Under the pieces are notes generated by a model that did no database searches, was not told the origin of the DNA, and saw only the letters and a list, made by a program, of their open reading frames with translations. Shown here one piece after another: positions 481-5,850 of a stretch of 34,554 nt of DNA (position 1 is the first letter of the stretch; each line of letters starts with the position of its first letter). Position numbers and translations under genes: made by a program. The DNA comes from a phage. The DNA lies in NCBI GenBank assembly GCA_037431425.1, contig GCA_037431425.1_4129.4; one strand, given 5' to 3'.

Positions 481-600
481 TAAAAAAAGGATTGACTTCG
501 GTTAGTCCTTTTTGCTATTATATATTCATTGAGAGATAGCTCACTGACCCATAGGGTGCGGAAGTGTATCTATTATATGCTGGTGGGTGTATTATCTAGT
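481..600 (+). repeat. intergenic repeat copy 1 (terminator hairpin plus conserved downstream segment)
   Basis: Near-identical to 3421-3540 and related to 5696-5850; contains Chi octamer GCTGGTGG at 579-586. Confidence 0.7.
488..513 (+). terminator. intrinsic terminator (UUCG tetraloop hairpin plus T-tract)
   Basis: GGATTGAC-TTCG-GTTAGTCC (8-bp RNA stem with two G-U pairs) followed by TTTTTGCTATT. Confidence 0.6.
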
Positions 601-626
601 ACTGAAAACTATTTGATAAAAAGTAC

Positions 627-654
627 TTGCATTGTACTTAGAATCAAGTATAAT
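627..654 (+). promoter_or_regulatory. sigma70-like promoter
   Basis: -35 TTGCAT 627-632, 16-nt spacer, -10 TATAAT 649-654. Confidence 0.55.
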
Positions 655-660
655 GTTTTA

Positions 661-735
661 CATCAGGACGGGGAACGAAATAAGTAAATCCCTGTTAAGT
701 AGCCCAGGAGTAAGGCATACGAAAAACTCCCCTGA
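661..735 (+). promoter_or_regulatory. structured 5' leader (long-range pairing TCAGG...GGGG / CCCC...CCTGA)
   Basis: Unlike the simple hairpin of other cassettes, about 75 nt with nested complementary segments between promoter and the 806 gene. Confidence 0.35.
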
Positions 736-805
736 TAAAATAGTTTGACAATAGTTTTAAGTACTGATAAAATAATCACATCAACTACTGATAAGGAAAC
801 ATAAA

Positions 806-1081
806 ATGCGGGTTCTTCTGACAGCTAACGAAATCGAGCAAGTACTTACTACTAACCTGGAACAATGGAAACGTGAAGCAGATATACAGGCGGTTCAATT
901 GTTAAATGATAAGTTAACGCCGGATGATTTAAGTAAGATTGTAGATCCTCAATTCTACGAAGATATTCACGACACCGCGTTAAGCGTCGAGGATGTACTA
1001 GATAAACACTACATTGATACTAATTTACAGGGTTACGGTCGTAAAAATTTTATTACTATTCACGACATTTACAATAATTAA
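806..1081 (+). CDS. hypothetical protein (91 aa)
   Basis: ORF with RBS AAGGAAAC 6 nt upstream of ATG. Confidence 0.7.
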   Translation: MRVLLTANEIEQVLTTNLEQWKREADIQAVQLLNDKLTPDDLSKIVDPQFYEDIHDTALSVEDVLDKHYIDTNLQGYGRKNFITIHDIYNN

Positions 1082-1084
1082 GTA

Positions 1085-1112
1085 TTGACAAAGTATCTTA
1101 GTACTGTATAAT
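1085..1112 (+). promoter_or_regulatory. sigma70-like promoter (extended -10)
   Basis: -35 TTGACA 1085-1090, 16-nt spacer, TG-n-TATAAT 1105-1112. Confidence 0.6.
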
Positions 1113-1142
1113 AGTTTGCATATTAATTAATAAGGAAACAAC

Positions 1143-1277
1143 ATGAAAGCGAATAAAGCAGCAAAGAAAGAAACCAATCCACTGGCTGGATGGAAATTAG
1201 ATTTATCCGATGAAGTAGTTTGCACAAATAAGAATGTAGTTGAAGCTGAAAAGAAATTACGAAAAGAAAACAAATAA
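1143..1277 (+). CDS. hypothetical small lysine-rich protein (44 aa)
   Basis: ATG 1143 after RBS AAGGAAAC; stop TAA 1275-1277; translated by hand, not in ORF track. Confidence 0.5.
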   Translation: MKANKAAKKETNPLAGWKLDLSDEVVCTNKNVVEAEKKLRKENK

Positions 1278-1280
1278 GTA

Positions 1281-1342
1281 TTGACAAAGTATCTTAGTAC
1301 TGTATAATAGATTACATCAAGTGAGGGGAAACGGTTCCCCTC
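1281..1342 (+). promoter_or_regulatory. sigma70-like promoter plus stem-loop (PeSL-like)
   Basis: -35 TTGACA 1281-1286, -10 TATAAT 1303-1308, hairpin GAGGGGAAACGGTTCCCCTC 1323-1342. Confidence 0.6.
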
Positions 1343-1363
1343 CTAACAAAGAGAGAAATAAAA

Positions 1364-1687
1364 ATGACTATGATCCTTGCCCAGAAAGTAGAACTGAAAA
1401 TTGTAACTTCCTTTGACATTAAAGTTAATCGCTGGACTGATCGGAACGGTAATACTTACCACTCTTGCTACGTGTCTGCATTGATTGGTGATCGTTGGGA
1501 AGACTTGGGACATGAAACCTTTACATACGGTTATGGTACGCAAGGCGAATACACTGGTTTGGAGATCATTAAAGAAACCGTTATAGGTTTCAACCCGAAA
1601 GAAAAAGTTATTCACCGCATCGAAAAAGAGATTAATAAAGAAATAACAGTTCGCTACTACGATGTAAAACGTAAGAAAGACATGTAA
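1364..1687 (+). CDS. hypothetical protein (107 aa)
   Basis: ORF directly downstream of promoter/hairpin cassette with RBS. Confidence 0.7.
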   Translation: MTMILAQKVELKIVTSFDIKVNRWTDRNGNTYHSCYVSALIGDRWEDLGHETFTYGYGTQGEYTGLEIIKETVIGFNPKEKVIHRIEKEINKEITVRYYDVKRKKDM

Positions 1688-1709
1688 TAGAATCCATTTA
1701 AAGTACTAT

Positions 1710-1738
1710 TTGACATTACACAGATAGTACTTTATAAT
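1710..1738 (+). promoter_or_regulatory. sigma70-like promoter
   Basis: -35 TTGACA 1710-1715, 17-nt spacer, -10 TATAAT 1733-1738. Confidence 0.55.
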
Positions 1739-1782
1739 AGACTCTAACTTGTAGTATTAACTTAACTAATAGGATGTATACC

Positions 1783-4240: not shown

Positions 4241-4428
4241 CAGTTGAAGAAGTTAAAAAAGTACTGGCAGTACTACGCTATCATAATCATTGCAAGGTGA
4301 AGAATGATCCTGATTATCTTGATTCATCCCTTGAGGAAGACACATTAAACGCAATAAGCTATATGCAAACATTATTAAAACGTATGACCGAAAAGAATAG
4401 ACCGGACTATATCGGAAATAAAATTTAA
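4237..4428 (+). CDS. hypothetical protein (63 aa)
   Basis: ATGA overlap with upstream stop. Confidence 0.6.
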   Translation: MTVEEVKKVLAVLRYHNHCKVKNDPDYLDSSLEEDTLNAISYMQTLLKRMTEKNRPDYIGNKI

Positions 4429-4435
4429 AAAGTAC

Positions 4436-4497
4436 TTGCATTGTAGTTAGATTAACGTATAATGTTTTATATCGAGAGGGGGAAATGGTTTCCCCTC
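4436..4497 (+). promoter_or_regulatory. sigma70-like promoter plus stem-loop (PeSL-like)
   Basis: -35 TTGCAT 4436-4441, -10 TATAAT 4458-4463, hairpin 4475-4497. Confidence 0.6.
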
Positions 4498-4515
4498 AAG
4501 TCCAGGAGATACACA

Positions 4516-4779
4516 ATGAACACTATCGAAATCACTATCAATGCTCACGTATACGACAACGTAGTACTGCAAACTACTATGACCGCTAATGATACCAGTA
4601 CTTTGCGGAATACTGTTATAAGTGCCGTATGTGCTGCAATCGGTGATGTATCATTGGAGAATGCAGCACACATCAACAACGGTTTCACTATGTGCAAACG
4701 TGATAACGCAAAACATATCATCGTAGAAGGTTACGGCGGTGTAGAATATAATCTTTATATGAAAAAAGTACTTGCATAG
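4516..4779 (+). CDS. hypothetical protein (87 aa)
   Basis: ATG 4516 after RBS AGGAGAT; track start 4462 lies inside the promoter/hairpin so the internal ATG is preferred. Confidence 0.65.
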   Translation: MNTIEITINAHVYDNVVLQTTMTANDTSTLRNTVISAVCAAIGDVSLENAAHINNGFTMCKRDNAKHIIVEGYGGVEYNLYMKKVLA

Positions 4780-4828
4780 TAACTAAAATAAAGTATAATG
4801 TTTTGCATAGGGGGAGATATCCTCCCCC
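4772..4828 (+). promoter_or_regulatory. sigma70-like promoter plus stem-loop (PeSL-like)
   Basis: -35 TTGCAT 4772-4777, -10 TATAAT 4794-4799, hairpin GGGGGAG/CTCCCCC 4810-4828; promoter overlaps the 3' end of the previous CDS. Confidence 0.6.
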
Positions 4829-4846
4829 ACTAAAAGGAGTAATAAA

Positions 4847-5071
4847 ATGGCTATCTTTGATGAACTGATGCGGGAAGTAGCTACCCTGGCAGAAGAGAAG
4901 AAATCATTTGATTCTATCTACAACACCGCTCACCGTGATTCAGTACTGGCATGTAACCAGGATCAAAAAGATGAACTAATCGCCACCTACCATGAAGCGT
5001 GGAAGTATTACCGCCAATGGGAGAAAGAAGAAAGTGAGTCTACCATTGACGGCCTCAATAATCTAATCTAA
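4847..5071 (+). CDS. hypothetical protein (74 aa)
   Basis: ORF with RBS AAAGGAG. Confidence 0.65.
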   Translation: MAIFDELMREVATLAEEKKSFDSIYNTAHRDSVLACNQDQKDELIATYHEAWKYYRQWEKEESESTIDGLNNLI

Positions 5072-5089
5072 AGTTTTATTTCAGTACTA

Positions 5090-5118
5090 TTGACATAGAT
5101 TGATAGTACTGATATGAT
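5090..5118 (+). promoter_or_regulatory. sigma70-like promoter
   Basis: -35 TTGACA 5090-5095, 17-nt spacer, -10 TATGAT 5113-5118. Confidence 0.5.
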
Positions 5119-5146
5119 AACTTTACTAACTACAAGGGGAAACATC

Positions 5147-5404
5147 ATGGAACAATTCACACAATATCGGGTAAATCCTCAAGCTATGGCATACGTAGAA
5201 GACCATAAAACGTTACCAGTACAAACACCAATTAAAGGCCATATCTATCGTGCAATGTCATGGAATCCGGCCCAGGATGGCTATAACACCGTAGCCGTGG
5301 GCATGTACTGCGGTAATGGTGAATGGTTTGATCCTAACAATCCGATTGCACTTGATAGTACTGAAAAAATGAAATGGGCCGATTACATCGAAGATATTTC
5401 ATAA
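5147..5404 (+). CDS. hypothetical protein (85 aa)
   Basis: ATG 5147 after RBS AAGGGGA; track start 5114 coincides with the predicted transcription start. Confidence 0.65.
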   Translation: MEQFTQYRVNPQAMAYVEDHKTLPVQTPIKGHIYRAMSWNPAQDGYNTVAVGMYCGNGEWFDPNNPIALDSTEKMKWADYIEDIS

Positions 5405-5411
5405 AAACTAT

Positions 5412-5472
5412 TTGACAGTACTAACCAGTAATGTATAATGTTTTACATAGAGCGGGGGAATAGTTCTCCCGC
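5412..5472 (+). promoter_or_regulatory. sigma70-like promoter plus stem-loop (PeSL-like)
   Basis: -35 TTGACA 5412-5417, -10 TATAAT 5434-5439, hairpin 5452-5472. Confidence 0.6.
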
Positions 5473-5494
5473 CAATAGTTTGGAGTAAAACATT

Positions 5495-5692
5495 ATGTCT
5501 ATCGCTATCGCCCTGGTCGAAGTACTGAAAGAAGCTAAAGCCAACCTTATCGATGTACAGATTAAGGAATTGCAAAATGGCTTAATCGGCTGTACTTGTA
5601 CCGCTGGTGGATCTGATTATCGTGAATTCGAATCACTTGAATCACTGGTCCGGTATCTTAAAATGATCGTGGAAGATTGGAGAATCATCTAA
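5495..5692 (+). CDS. hypothetical protein (65 aa)
   Basis: ORF with RBS TGGAGT. Confidence 0.6.
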   Translation: MSIAIALVEVLKEAKANLIDVQIKELQNGLIGCTCTAGGSDYREFESLESLVRYLKMIVEDWRII

Positions 5693-5695
5693 CAA

Positions 5696-5850
5696 AAAAA
5701 GAATAAAAAGGGATTGACTCCGGTCAGTCCCTTTGCTATTATATACGCATAGACAAAAACTAGCCCACAGGGTGCATAGGTGTATCTAAAATATATAGTT
5801 AATAACGGTGAGTAACTATCTGCTGGTGGGGTGAAAACTATTAATAAAAA
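5696..5850 (+). repeat. intergenic repeat copy 3 (diverged in second half)
   Basis: Terminator part identical to copy 2; contains Chi octamer GCTGGTGG at 5822-5829. Confidence 0.65.
5710..5740 (+). terminator. intrinsic terminator
   Basis: GGGATTGAC-TCCG-GTCAGTCCC followed by TTTGCTATT. Confidence 0.6.

What the first reader, a model, noticed from the sequence alone, without database searches (positions are those of the whole stretch)
481..5850. Three-copy intergenic repeat combining a tetraloop terminator with a conserved downstream segment, two copies carrying Chi octamers
Copies at 481-600, 3421-3540 and 5696-5850 begin with an intrinsic terminator hairpin (GGGATTGAC-TCCG-GTCAGTCCC plus a T-run) and continue with a conserved segment (TCACTGACCCATAGGGTGCGG-AGTGTATCTATTATAT). 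Two of the three copies contain the E. coli Chi octamer 5'-GCTGGTGG-3' on the + strand (579-586 and 5822-5829). A given octamer is expected roughly once per 65 kb per strand, so two in 34.5 kb, both in the same repeat context, is unlikely by chance. The conserved non-terminator part suggests an additional role (protein binding site, recombination hotspot or small RNA).
Basis: seen in the sequence. Interest (0 to 1): 0.5.

Follow-up and report, generated by a model that had tools for sequence, protein, structure and literature searches.

The report
Terminator-promoter cassette launching a conserved phage RNA
The three repeats are copies of a compact control cassette in the terminal-repeat (early) region of a jumbo E. 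coli phage, in which a terminator hairpin hides a strong promoter that starts a short, conserved, folded RNA of unknown job, while the Chi octamers belong to a separate, real array of recombination signals spread over the whole terminal repeat.

Summary
Three copies exist (484-~600, 3424-~3530, 5707-~5850), each directly after a stop codon.

- **Nested promoter.** The UNCG-capped hairpin contains a near-consensus sigma-70 promoter (TTGACT, 17-18 bp, TGcTATTAT). This is the layout described for PeSL terminator/promoter cassettes of T4-type phages.
- **RNA module.** The "conserved downstream segment" starts about 7 nt after the -10. It has a 5' hairpin with a covarying stem and purine-rich loop, then R-CCC-AYA-GGG-U plus GC, then a (R)UGUAUCUAU tail.
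- **Distribution.** It belongs with the promoter, not the terminator. I found 92 distinct copies (about 11 per terminal repeat) in Rak2-like jumbo phages of eight enterobacterial genera. Some are stand-alone units of roughly 100 nt with their own terminator. It is absent from Rfam, from GTDB genomes and from the searchable literature.
- **Chi.** Chi is not part of the repeat. There are four + strand Chi sites, two of them inside ORFs, against 0.12 expected. They belong to a co-oriented Chi array confined to the roughly 21-kb direct terminal repeat (vB_Ec-M-J 9:2, CBB 7:2). This resembles the terminally clustered Chi of P1 and LLS.

The RNA's function is unknown.

The parts
484..513 (+). Copy 1: A-tract, hairpin and T-run (AAAAAGGATTGAC-TTCG-GTTAGTCCTTTTT). 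Putative intrinsic terminator of ORF 324-473.
   Evidence: dG -15.5, z -5.3. The stop codon is at 471-473.
492..521 (+). Copy 1: nested sigma-70 promoter. TTGACT (492-497), 18-bp spacer, TG (513-514), TATTAT (516-521). Predicted +1 near A528.
   Evidence: The same promoter is kept in 66/69 family members.
528..578 (+). Copy 1: conserved RNA module. 5' hairpin UGAG-AGAUAG-CUCA (530-543), hairpin A-CCC-AUA-GGG-U (547-557), then GC plus the GGAAGUGUAUCUAUUAUAU tail.
   Evidence: CM R1 hit 522-587, 59 bits, E=1.5e-11. Covariation.
579..586 (+). Chi octamer GCTGGTGG in the spacer after copy 1. Orthologous Chi in 121Q, TH47 and vB_Ec-M-J (14099).
603..654 (+). Copy 1: UP-like A/T tract and the main early promoter of the next unit (TTGCAT 627-632, TATAAT 649-654).
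   Evidence: (D4/D6).
3424..3451 (+). Copy 2: hairpin AAAGGGATTGAC-TCCG-GTCAGTCCCTTT. Putative terminator of the kinase-like ORF 2828-3412.
   Evidence: dG -19.5, z -5.6.
3431..3459 (+). Copy 2: nested promoter. TTGACT, 17-bp spacer, TG, TATTAT. Predicted +1 near A3466.
3466..3516 (+). Copy 2: conserved RNA module (hairpin 1 at 3468-3481, hairpin 2 at 3485-3495, tail to 3516). No Chi.
   Evidence: CM hit 3460-3525, 65.7 bits, E=2.7e-13. 95-98.5% identical in about 30 Asteriusvirus genomes.
3529..3580 (+). Copy 2: UP-like tract and next early promoter (TTGAAT 3553-3558, TATAAT 3575-3580).
5707..5734 (+). Copy 3: hairpin identical to copy 2. Putative terminator of ORF 5495-5692.
   Evidence: dG -20.2, z -6.6.
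5714..5742 (+). Copy 3: nested promoter. TTGACT, 17-bp spacer, TG, TATTAT. Predicted +1 near A5749.
5749..5794 (+). Copy 3: 'short-class' RNA module. An A-rich segment UAGACAAAAACUA without a stable hairpin 1, then hairpin G-CCC-ACA-GGG-U (5763-5773), then the GCAUAGGUGUAUCUA tail.
   Evidence: CM hit 5737-5803, 60.9 bits, E=5.1e-12. Short class described.
5822..5829 (+). Chi octamer 47 nt after the copy 3 core. In the right-end copy of the terminal repeat this would be the first correctly oriented Chi, about 1.4 kb from the terminus.
5831..5882 (+). Copy 3: UP-like tract and next early promoter (TTGACA 5854-5859, AATAAT 5877-5882).
4025..4032 (+). Chi octamer inside ORF 3968-4240 (GCT GGT GGA). 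Part of the same co-oriented array.
   Evidence: Orthologue at vB_Ec-M-J 18356.
5603..5610 (+). Chi octamer inside ORF 5495-5692. Part of the array.
   Evidence: Orthologue at vB_Ec-M-J 19935.
1..7189 (.). Inner part of the direct terminal repeat (early region). The junction with unique DNA is inferred at 7189|7190.
   Evidence: The vB_Ec-M-J DTR is annotated 1-21525. Its last and next 60 nt map to window 7138-7189 and 7190-7243.

Best explanation
The repeat is a composite early-region regulatory cassette of an Asteriusvirus-type (Rak2-like) jumbo coliphage. Reading 5' to 3':

1. A UNCG-capped hairpin plus U-run ends transcription of the upstream small early gene (inferred).
2. A near-consensus host sigma-70 promoter is nested in that hairpin. 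TTGACT forms part of the 5' arm, and the extended -10 TGcTATTAT overlaps the U-run. RNA polymerase therefore re-initiates at once (inferred from consensus and conservation). This is the PeSL architecture of T4-type phages.
3. The first ~50 nt of that transcript form a conserved RNA module. It has a 5'-terminal hairpin whose stem covaries freely while its purine-rich loop is kept. Next comes a nearly invariant small hairpin R-CCC-AYA-GGG-U followed by GC, then an AU-rich (R)UGUAUCUAU tail. The structure is shown by covariation. That it is made as RNA is inferred.
4. An UP-like tract and the main early promoter of the next gene follow.

In the window the module would be the 5' leader of a read-through transcript. 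Elsewhere in the same terminal repeat and in other genera the same promoter plus module is closed by its own terminator, giving an RNA of roughly 100 nt. I therefore take the RNA itself to be the product: an abundant, immediate-early, multi-copy small RNA or leader. Its invariant core would be a recognition site for a protein or RNA partner that has not been identified.

The Chi octamers are a separate layer. They are members of an array of co-oriented Chi sites confined to the ~21-kb direct terminal repeat. The array is oriented to stop RecBCD entering the right genome end and to load RecA, giving end protection and/or recombination between the terminal repeats. This role is inferred by analogy with P1 and LLS.
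For: Identity of the window:
- About 93% identity to Asteriusvirus phages.
- The region maps inside the annotated DTR of vB_Ec-M-J.

Hairpins:
-.
- The outer stems covary among genera (GGGA/TCCC, GTAC/GTAC, GTGG/CCAT).

Promoter, in 69 distinct copies:
- TTGAC in 66.
- 17-bp spacer in 53.
- TG in 43.
- TATTAT, TATACT or TATAAT in 58.
- The hairpin is absent in 29 of 69 while promoter and module stay, so the module goes with the promoter.

RNA structure:
- Helix 1 has 27 stem/loop combinations with at least 17 different stems but only about 6 loop types.
- All four helix 1 pairs show double changes. The covariation score is 0.325 against 0.152 in shuffles (0/500) and at most 0.10 in slid controls. 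The same trend appears on the raw MAFFT alignment.
- Helix 2 is 96.5% paired, with CCU/AGG double changes and 49 G-U against 2 A-C. This points to the promoter-sense strand.

Family:
- 112 CM hits, 92 distinct. 11 hits lie in one DTR.
- 335 places in 65 phage records from 8 host genera.

Stand-alone units with terminators:
- L018 2588, L006 12037-, L003 14351- and vB_Ec-M-J 5606-5541.

Not coding:
- Copies differ by indels that are not multiples of three.

PeSL layout:
- PMC2839356 states that the stem-loop lies most often between the -35 and -10 boxes.
- All 8 synteny breakpoints against TH47 fall in intergenic cassettes.

Chi:
-.
- Active orientation as stated in PMC12315714.
Against: - There are no transcript data for any Rak2-like phage, so the promoter, the terminator and the RNA are all predictions.
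- The three window copies have no terminator before the next promoter, so a discrete small RNA is not evident here.
- A quarter of copies, including window copy 3, lack a stable hairpin 1.
- Helix 2 is only 3-4 bp and almost invariant, so it says little about structure. Its sequence conservation would fit a DNA site as well.
- Sense and antisense fold equally well thermodynamically.
- The CM-fitted alignment leans towards the model, and helix 1 is only 63% paired there because of mis-registered rows.
- No partner, target or function was found.
- The U-run after the hairpin is short: 3-5 U, then GCUAUUAU.
Confidence: 0.6

Rival explanations
1. The repeat is a Chi-carrying element, a recombination hotspot or RecBCD shield, and Chi is a functional component of it.
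For: - Chi at 579 and 5822 is conserved at the orthologous places in 121Q, TH47 and vB_Ec-M-J, although the bases next to it differ.
- Several family members in other phages carry Chi inside the promoter spacer (L006 20289, L007 4472, L019 10053-).
- Window copy 1 and its orthologues differ in module class, which suggests exchange inside the element just 5' of Chi.
Against: - Copy 2 has no Chi, and the two Chi sites are out of register.
- 2 of 4 window Chi sites are in ORFs. In GAP32 7 of 7 top-strand Chi sites are in ORFs, and in CBB 6 of 7.
- Only 2 of 9 top-strand Chi sites in the vB_Ec-M-J DTR adjoin a motif.
- L009 has many motif copies and zero Chi.
Confidence: 0.12
2. The conserved core acts as double-stranded DNA. 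It would be a binding site at about +20 to +32 for a phage or host protein, such as a roadblock or repressor shutting off these promoters, or a site for replication or packaging. No functional RNA is involved.
For: - CCCAYAGGGTGC is conserved in sequence far beyond what a 3-4 bp hairpin needs.
- It occurs in both orientations and as convergent pairs flanking a palindrome near the genome end.
- No RNA target was found.
Against: - It has a fixed distance and orientation relative to a promoter in every copy.
- Hairpin 1 covaries.
- The R-U closing pair is A-U or G-U, never the A-C that the other strand would need.
- The site is not a dyad beyond CCC/GGG.
- Some units have a dedicated terminator.
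Confidence: 0.18
3. The module is a cis-acting nut- or put-like leader. A boxB-like hairpin plus a conserved element would modify RNA polymerase that starts at the nested promoter, so that it reads through the many early terminators.
For: - It lies directly downstream of early promoters in a terminator-rich region.
- Hairpin 1 has a short stem of free sequence and GNRNA-like purine loops (GCGAAA, GAGAAA, AGAACAA).
- The window copies do read into downstream genes.
Against: - Stand-alone copies end at a strong terminator about 40 nt after the core, and no gene lies beyond it on that strand.
- Every downstream gene has its own promoter.
- There is no boxA-like sequence and no Rfam hit.
- The short class lacks the hairpin.
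Confidence: 0.1
4. There is no function beyond terminator and promoter. The downstream segment would be hitch-hiking sequence kept similar by recent duplication or gene conversion between cassettes, or a small ORF as annotated in several GenBank records.
For: - Within a genome some copies are nearly identical (copies 1 and 2; the hairpins of copies 2 and 3).
- There is evidence of exchange between copies.
- 'Hypothetical protein' features overlap it in many records.
Against: - The segment is alignable across eight host genera whose flanking genes are not.
- Stems differ among copies in one genome while the core stays invariant.
- Frame-breaking indels exist.
- The candidate mini-ORF (NUG UAU CUA stop) is missing in an estimated 40% of copies on inspection.
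Confidence: 0.07

Closest known systems
PeSL cassettes (promoter-early stem-loops) of T4-type phages RB49/phi1, PST and nt-1 (PMC2839356, PMC4122927)
   Same: - Repeated intergenic composite of a strong sigma-70-type early promoter, an upstream A/T tract and a terminator stem-loop placed between the -35 and -10 boxes.
- Located among small ORFan early genes.
- Indels and replacements between close relatives break at the cassettes.
   Different: - Here the promoter is followed by a ~50-nt conserved structured module and then a second promoter. In PeSLs it is followed directly by the Shine-Dalgarno sequence and start codon.
- The module also exists without the stem-loop and as stand-alone units.
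- The host phage is a Rak2-like jumbo phage, and the cassettes lie in the direct terminal repeat.
- Mini-circle formation was not examined.
Terminally clustered, co-oriented Chi sites of phage P1 (50 Chi sites, mostly in or near the terminal repeats) and of LLS-type lambdoid phages (PMC12315714; bioRxiv 10.1101/2021.07.08.451572)
   Same: - Same octamer, many-fold excess and strong strand bias.
- Concentrated at the end of the packaged DNA, within terminal redundancy.
- Oriented to be active for RecBCD entering that end.
   Different: - A virulent jumbo phage with exact ~21-kb direct terminal repeats.
- The array sits in the immediate-early gene region.
- RecBCD dependence is untested.
- These phages are annotated as encoding RecA/UvsX-like and RecD-like proteins (PMC11895373), unlike LLS, which lacks a Rec module.
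Lambda nut (boxA/boxB) and HK022 put antitermination RNAs
   Same: - Promoter-proximal RNA element in an early phage operon.
- A short hairpin with a free stem and a purine-rich GNRA-like loop.
   Different: - No boxA, and a different conserved core.
- 11 copies per repeat rather than 2 per genome.
- Many copies are followed at once by a terminator.
- No antiterminator is known.
ncRNA001 and ncRNA002 of Pseudomonas jumbo phage PA5oct, which are highly expressed non-coding RNAs in its long terminal repeat (PMC7318152)
   Same: - Non-coding transcripts encoded in the terminal repeat of a related jumbo phage that relies on host RNA polymerase.
- Expressed from early infection onward.
   Different: - 236-451 nt and single copy.
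- No match to model R1.
- No sequence similarity.

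Membership tests
PeSL-type composite terminator/promoter cassette | Near-consensus sigma-70 promoter with an A/T-rich upstream tract | tested here: met
   TTGACT, 17/18 bp, TGcTATTAT in all three copies, preceded by A-runs. Conserved in the family. Promoter activity was not measured.
PeSL-type composite terminator/promoter cassette | Stable stem-loop overlapping the promoter (between -35 and -10) that acts as terminator or attenuator | tested here: met
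   The stem-loop spans the -35 and the spacer. dG is -15.5 to -20.2 and z is -5.3 to -6.6. Termination itself is not testable here.
PeSL-type composite terminator/promoter cassette | Flanks small ORFan genes in plastic regions, and indels between close relatives break at the cassettes | tested here: met
   8 of 8 breakpoints against TH47 within window 1-7.5 kb lie in intergenic cassettes. There is an insertion at a promoter cassette in vB_Ec-M-J.
PeSL-type composite terminator/promoter cassette | The cassette ends with the Shine-Dalgarno sequence and start codon of the downstream gene | tested here: not met
   A ~50-nt conserved module, a spacer, an UP-like tract and a second promoter intervene. 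One relative copy (L006 17723) does run straight into an RBS.
Rho-independent terminator | G+C-rich hairpin followed by a U-tract directly after a gene | tested here: inconclusive
   The hairpin is strong and starts 11-15 nt after the stop codons. The U-run is only 3-5 U before GCUAUUAU. Relatives annotate it as terminator or stem_loop.
Functional Chi array (RecBCD attenuation/recombination) | 5'-GCTGGTGG-3' in significant excess | tested here: met
   Window: 4 against 0.12 expected. DTR regions: 7-11 against ~0.1 expected. In TH47, 10 of 23 genome-wide sites lie in 16.6 kb, p=3.5e-8. Genome-wide excess is only about 2-4x under order 2-6 Markov models.
Functional Chi array (RecBCD attenuation/recombination) | Orientation bias such that RecBCD entering a DNA end meets Chi from its 3' side | tested here: met
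   Top:bottom is 9:2 (vB_Ec-M-J DTR), 7:2 (CBB DTR), 9:1 (K64-1) and 11:2 (Munch). Pooled 36:7, p=9e-6. Top-strand sites face the right terminus. A bottom-strand Chi lies 588 bp from the left terminus.
Functional Chi array (RecBCD attenuation/recombination) | Chi-dependent RecBCD nicking, protection, or RecBCD/RecA-dependent growth | not testable with these tools
   Needs genetics and biochemistry.
Any Rfam 15 family | Covariance-model score at or above the gathering threshold | tested here: not met
   0 hits in the window at gathering threshold. Only chance-level hits with E above 3 at 3400-3640. 0 hits at E of 1 or less in L012, L014 and L018.
Lambda-type nut site | boxA consensus plus boxB hairpin, acting to suppress downstream terminators | tested here: not met
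   No boxA-like sequence was seen in the aligned copies (inspection). A terminator follows stand-alone copies directly. Only the boxB-like loop resemblance holds.
Hfq-type trans-acting sRNA | Own promoter, seed region, and Rho-independent terminator with U-tail | tested here: inconclusive
   Met for the stand-alone copies in relatives. Not met for the three window copies, which have no terminator before the next promoter. No target was found in the phage genome. Host targets were not searchable.
CRISPR-repeat mimic (RNA anti-CRISPR) | Close similarity to a host CRISPR repeat | not tested
   I compared the module only with I-F and I-E repeat sequences recalled from memory. The CACUG...AUAGG resemblance is limited to two window copies and is not conserved in the family. 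No repeat database was searched.

The most novel reading that the evidence does not exclude
The promoter-linked module encodes a previously undescribed family of immediate-early, multi-copy small RNAs of Rak2-like jumbo phages. There are about 11 genes per terminal repeat, so about 22 per injected genome. The invariant R-CCC-AYA-GGG-UGC core would capture a conserved enterobacterial or phage factor. Possible roles are a decoy or sponge for a defence or RNA-metabolism protein, or a loading site that reprograms RNA polymerase. The cassettes, with Chi placed just 3' of some of them, would also be preferred crossover points for gene shuffling in the terminal repeat.
Probability: 0.3. Interest if true: 0.75.

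Novelty: new variant of a known kind. Interest (0 to 1): 0.55.

Why it matters
**Why the phages matter.** Rak2-like jumbo phages (121Q, PBECO4, RaK2, K64-1, GAP32, CBB) are being developed for therapy. Most of their terminal-repeat genes are unannotated, and the library I searched holds no transcript map for them.

**What the RNA module adds.**
- It is conserved across eight host genera.
- It is driven by consensus host promoters.
- Each incoming genome carries about 20 copies.

These features make it a strong candidate for an early host-takeover or regulatory RNA. It also gives a concrete target for RNA-seq, pull-down and antisense knock-down. Many GenBank records annotate 'hypothetical proteins' across it, which is probably wrong.

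**What the Chi array adds.** It extends the P1/LLS idea, that phages use host RecBCD-Chi to protect or recombine terminally redundant ends, to virulent jumbo phages. That can be tested with existing rec mutants.

**Cassette layout.** The nested terminator/promoter design extends the PeSL layout beyond the T4-type phages in which it was described, to a Rak2-like jumbo phage.

Tried and rejected
- **tRNA/tmRNA:** none found.
- **Rfam:** no family, at gathering and at permissive thresholds.
- **Bacterial origin:** the 21-base core pattern is absent from 185,579 GTDB genomes.
- **Literature:** the core sequence gave no relevant paper. No transcriptome of a Rak2-like phage is in the library. The CBB paper lists promoters but not this motif.
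- **PA5oct terminal-repeat ncRNAs:** no match to model R1.
- **Third helix:** GGA/UCU, A2 columns 45-47 with 54-56. It is 73% paired with mostly one-sided changes and shifting register, so I left it out of the model.
- **One long hairpin:** this is the MFE fold of copy 2. When I checked the pairing by hand in the K64-1 and CBB copies it was not kept.
- **Pseudoknot:** loop AGAUA with UAUCU holds for only one loop class.
- **Mini-ORF NUG-UAU-CUA-stop behind a GGGUG 'SD':** on inspection the start codon is missing in an estimated 40% of copies.
- **Antisense targets:** only the motif copies themselves match, in both the window and the TH47 genome.
- **Strand choice by folding energy:** no difference between sense and antisense.
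- **Resemblances from memory:** CsrA site (GGA absent) and I-F/I-E CRISPR repeat (not conserved). Both were judged from memory only.
- **Fur-box-like palindrome:** seen between convergent copies in relatives but absent from the window.
- **A false motif hit:** vB_Ec-M-J 6640(-) is an ordinary GCCCACC-AGGTGGGC terminator.

Full report
**What the window is.** Bases 1-6300 match Asteriusvirus jumbo coliphages (CRJP21, Turkey5, 121Q, TH47 and others) at 88-95% identity. In vB_Ec-M-J the homologous stretch lies inside an annotated direct terminal repeat (DTR), 1-21,525. The last and next 60 nt around that DTR end map to window 7138-7189 and 7190-7243. Window 1-7189 is therefore the inner ~7 kb of the DTR, a run of small early genes all on the + strand. 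The rest of the window is unique DNA. Sharanji, another member, has a PhageTerm DTR of 20,668 bp (PMC11895373).

**Checking the observation.**
- The three copies are real.
- Each begins 11-15 nt after a stop codon (473, 3412, 5692).
- Each has a 12-13-bp hairpin with a UUCG or UCCG loop, with dG from -15.5 to -20.2 kcal/mol and z from -5.3 to -6.6.
- Copies 1 and 2 share the downstream segment almost exactly. Copy 3 is a diverged, 5-nt shorter version.
- Chi is at 579 and 5822 as reported, but also at 4025 and 5603 inside ORFs. All four are on the + strand, against 0.12 expected.

**The hairpin hides a promoter.** The promoter scan found TTGACT, 17/18 bp, TATTAT with a TG extension in all three copies. 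TTGACT is part of the 5' arm of the hairpin, and the T-run is the start of the extended -10. Transcription would begin at the A of a conserved CAT (528, 3466, 5749). The 'conserved downstream segment' is therefore the start of a transcript.

**A clade-wide family.**
- BLAST of copy 2 found 335 places in 65 phage records. The hosts were Escherichia, Klebsiella, Salmonella, Erwinia, Pectobacterium, Cronobacter, Serratia and Yersinia. Identity was 71-78% between genera, and several places lay inside annotated terminal repeats.
- I collected 69 distinct copies with nhmmer and a core pattern. With a covariance model I found 112 matches, 92 of them distinct. Eleven lie in one vB_Ec-M-J DTR. The window holds only the three.
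- Among the 69 copies the promoter is constant: TTGAC in 66, a 17-bp spacer in 53, TG in 43, and TATTAT, TATACT or TATAAT in 58.
- The hairpin over the -35 is present in only 40 of the 69.

The segment therefore belongs to the promoter, not to the terminator.

**Structure of the module.** After CAT comes a hairpin whose stem differs freely between copies. Examples are UGAG/CUCA, UGGC/GCCG, AGCA/UGCU, ACCAC/GUGGU, UCCA/UGGA, GGAG/CUCC, GCCG/CGGC and ACAAA/UUUGU. There are at least 17 stems, but the loop stays purine-rich (AGAUAA, AGAACAA, GCGAAA, GAGAAA, AGAGCAA).
- All four modelled pairs show double changes.
- The covariation score is 0.325 against 0.152 +/- 0.010 in shuffles (0/500), and at most 0.10 when partners are slid.
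- The unrefined MAFFT alignment gives the same picture.
- A quarter of copies, including window copy 3, keep only the A-rich sequence without a stable stem.

Next comes R-CCC-AYA-GGG-U. It is 96.5% paired, shows CCU/AGG double changes twice, and has 49 G-U against 2 A-C. This fits the promoter-sense strand. Then follow an invariant GC, 4-5 variable purine-rich bases and (R)UGUAUCUAU. Length differences that are not multiples of three rule out a conserved ORF.

**Contexts.** I saw three.
- (i) As in the window, the module is followed after 37-75 nt by an UP-like tract and the next early promoter (about 28 copies).
- (ii) Stand-alone units carry their own terminator about 40 nt after the core. 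Often these are on the strand opposite to all genes, for example GGGGAG...CTCCCC-TTTGTGTT in Munch and vB_Ec-M-J 5606-5541(-).
- (iii) Convergent pairs have mutually complementary cores. They lie near the genome end and flank a Fur-box-like palindrome.

Contexts (ii) and (iii) lead to no gene. I therefore favour the RNA itself as the product. A cis antitermination leader (nut/put-like) or a mere 5' stabiliser fits less well.

**Comparison with known systems.**
- The terminator-in-promoter layout is that of PeSLs of T4-type phages. There the stem-loop is most often between the -35 and -10 boxes, and the cassettes mediate modular shuffling (PMC2839356, PMC4122927).
- Consistent with that, all eight synteny breakpoints between the window and TH47 within the DTR part fall in intergenic cassettes.
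- Window copy 1 differs in module class from its orthologues in 121Q and vB_Ec-M-J, which points to exchange inside the element.
- The module itself matches nothing. There is no Rfam family, no bacterial genome and no paper. The expressed terminal-repeat ncRNAs of PA5oct also do not match.

**Chi.**
- In every Rak2-like early region fetched from a cultured phage, Chi is far above expectation and strand-biased. Top:bottom counts are K64-1 9:1, CBB 7:2, GAP32 7:3 and Munch 11:2, against about 0.1 expected each.
- In the whole TH47 genome there are 23 sites. Expectation is 2.7 to 11.9 depending on Markov order. Ten of the 23 lie in the 16.6 kb that also holds all the motif copies (p=3.5e-8).
- In vB_Ec-M-J all 11 sites of the first 24 kb lie inside the DTR. 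Nine are on the top strand and two on the bottom. One of the bottom-strand sites forms an inverted pair 588/600 bp from the left end, also seen in Munch.
- Top-strand Chi is active for RecBCD entering from the right (PMC12315714). In the right-end DTR copy the first such Chi, window 5822, is about 1.4 kb from the terminus.
- The sites lie in ORFs and in spacers alike. Only 2 of 9 adjoin a motif copy. L009 has many motif copies but no Chi. Chi is therefore an independent layer.
[quoted passage not shown] LLS-type lambdoid phages are a second precedent (PMC12315714; bioRxiv 10.1101/2021.07.08.451572).

**Verdict.** The finding is real and richer than described, but its central link (Chi as part of the repeat) is not supported.
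- The repeat is a PeSL-like terminator/promoter cassette that launches a new, conserved, structured RNA module of unknown function.
- The Chi sites belong to a DTR-wide co-oriented array of a known kind.
- Shown here: repeat, hairpins, promoter consensus and its conservation, covariation, family distribution, Chi excess, clustering and orientation.
- Inferred: termination, initiation, RNA production, any partner, and the RecBCD role.

Noticed in passing
window 104-131, 3588-3612, 4470-4497, 4805-4828, 5447-5472, 6312-6338: A second repeat family: G+C-rich hairpins (for example GAGAGGGGAAUAGUUCCCCUC) directly after the predicted +1 (CAUAG) of the main early promoters and before the RBS. They are probably 5'-end stabilisers of early mRNAs (families D4/D6).
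   Followed up: partly
window, 19 sites (for example 173, 1937, 3524, 4941, 5868, 25779, 25795); TH47 whole genome: The palindrome CAGTACTG occurs 19 times against 0.46 expected in the window. It occurs 406 times in TH47, 17-fold over an order-2 Markov expectation and the top-ranked octamer. AGTACT sits in promoter spacers, UP regions, terminator stems and ORFs. Its role is unknown.
   Followed up: partly
window 7189|7190: Inferred junction between the direct terminal repeat and unique DNA, by homology with the annotated DTR end of vB_Ec-M-J (21525). All four Chi sites and all three motif copies lie on the DTR side.
   Followed up: yes
window 7386-13546; 21260-22458 and 27921-28316; 22998-24489: Tandem arrays of diverged paralogous small genes. 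Spacing is ~210-270 bp around a GGAACAAACTATCAAGA core, ~360 bp for families D7/D9/D18, and ~440-470 bp for family D2.
   Followed up: no
L006 ~1040-1060, L003 ~11345, L007 ~8070, L009 ~1290, L010 ~350 (related phages): Convergent pairs of the promoter plus RNA module flank a Fur-box-like palindrome AATGA(T/G)(A/T)ATCATT, 1-4 kb from the genome end in CBB, Munch and vB_Ec-M-J. None is in the window.
   Followed up: partly
L030 (vB_Ec-M-J) 588-607; L006 (Munch) 484-503: An inverted Chi pair, CCACCAGC-N4-GCTGGTGG, lies about 0.5 kb from the left genome terminus and is conserved between an E. coli and a Salmonella jumbo phage. It provides a correctly oriented Chi for RecBCD entering the left end.
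   Followed up: partly
window 528-578 versus L002 5648-5775 (121Q) and L030 14041-14107: Window copy 1 carries the long-class hairpin 1. Its positional orthologues in 121Q and vB_Ec-M-J carry the short-class 5' half (like window copy 3) joined to the same 3' flank and Chi. This is a sign of gene conversion or crossover inside the element.
   Followed up: partly
window 655-745: An unusually long leader between two promoter-like sites (627-654 and 745-773) upstream of ORF 806-1081. It has complementary ends (UCAGGACGGGGA ... CUCCCCUGA). Possible structured 5' UTR.
   Followed up: no
search hits: Many GenBank records annotate 'hypothetical protein' CDSs across the non-coding module. These are probably over-calls.
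   Followed up: no
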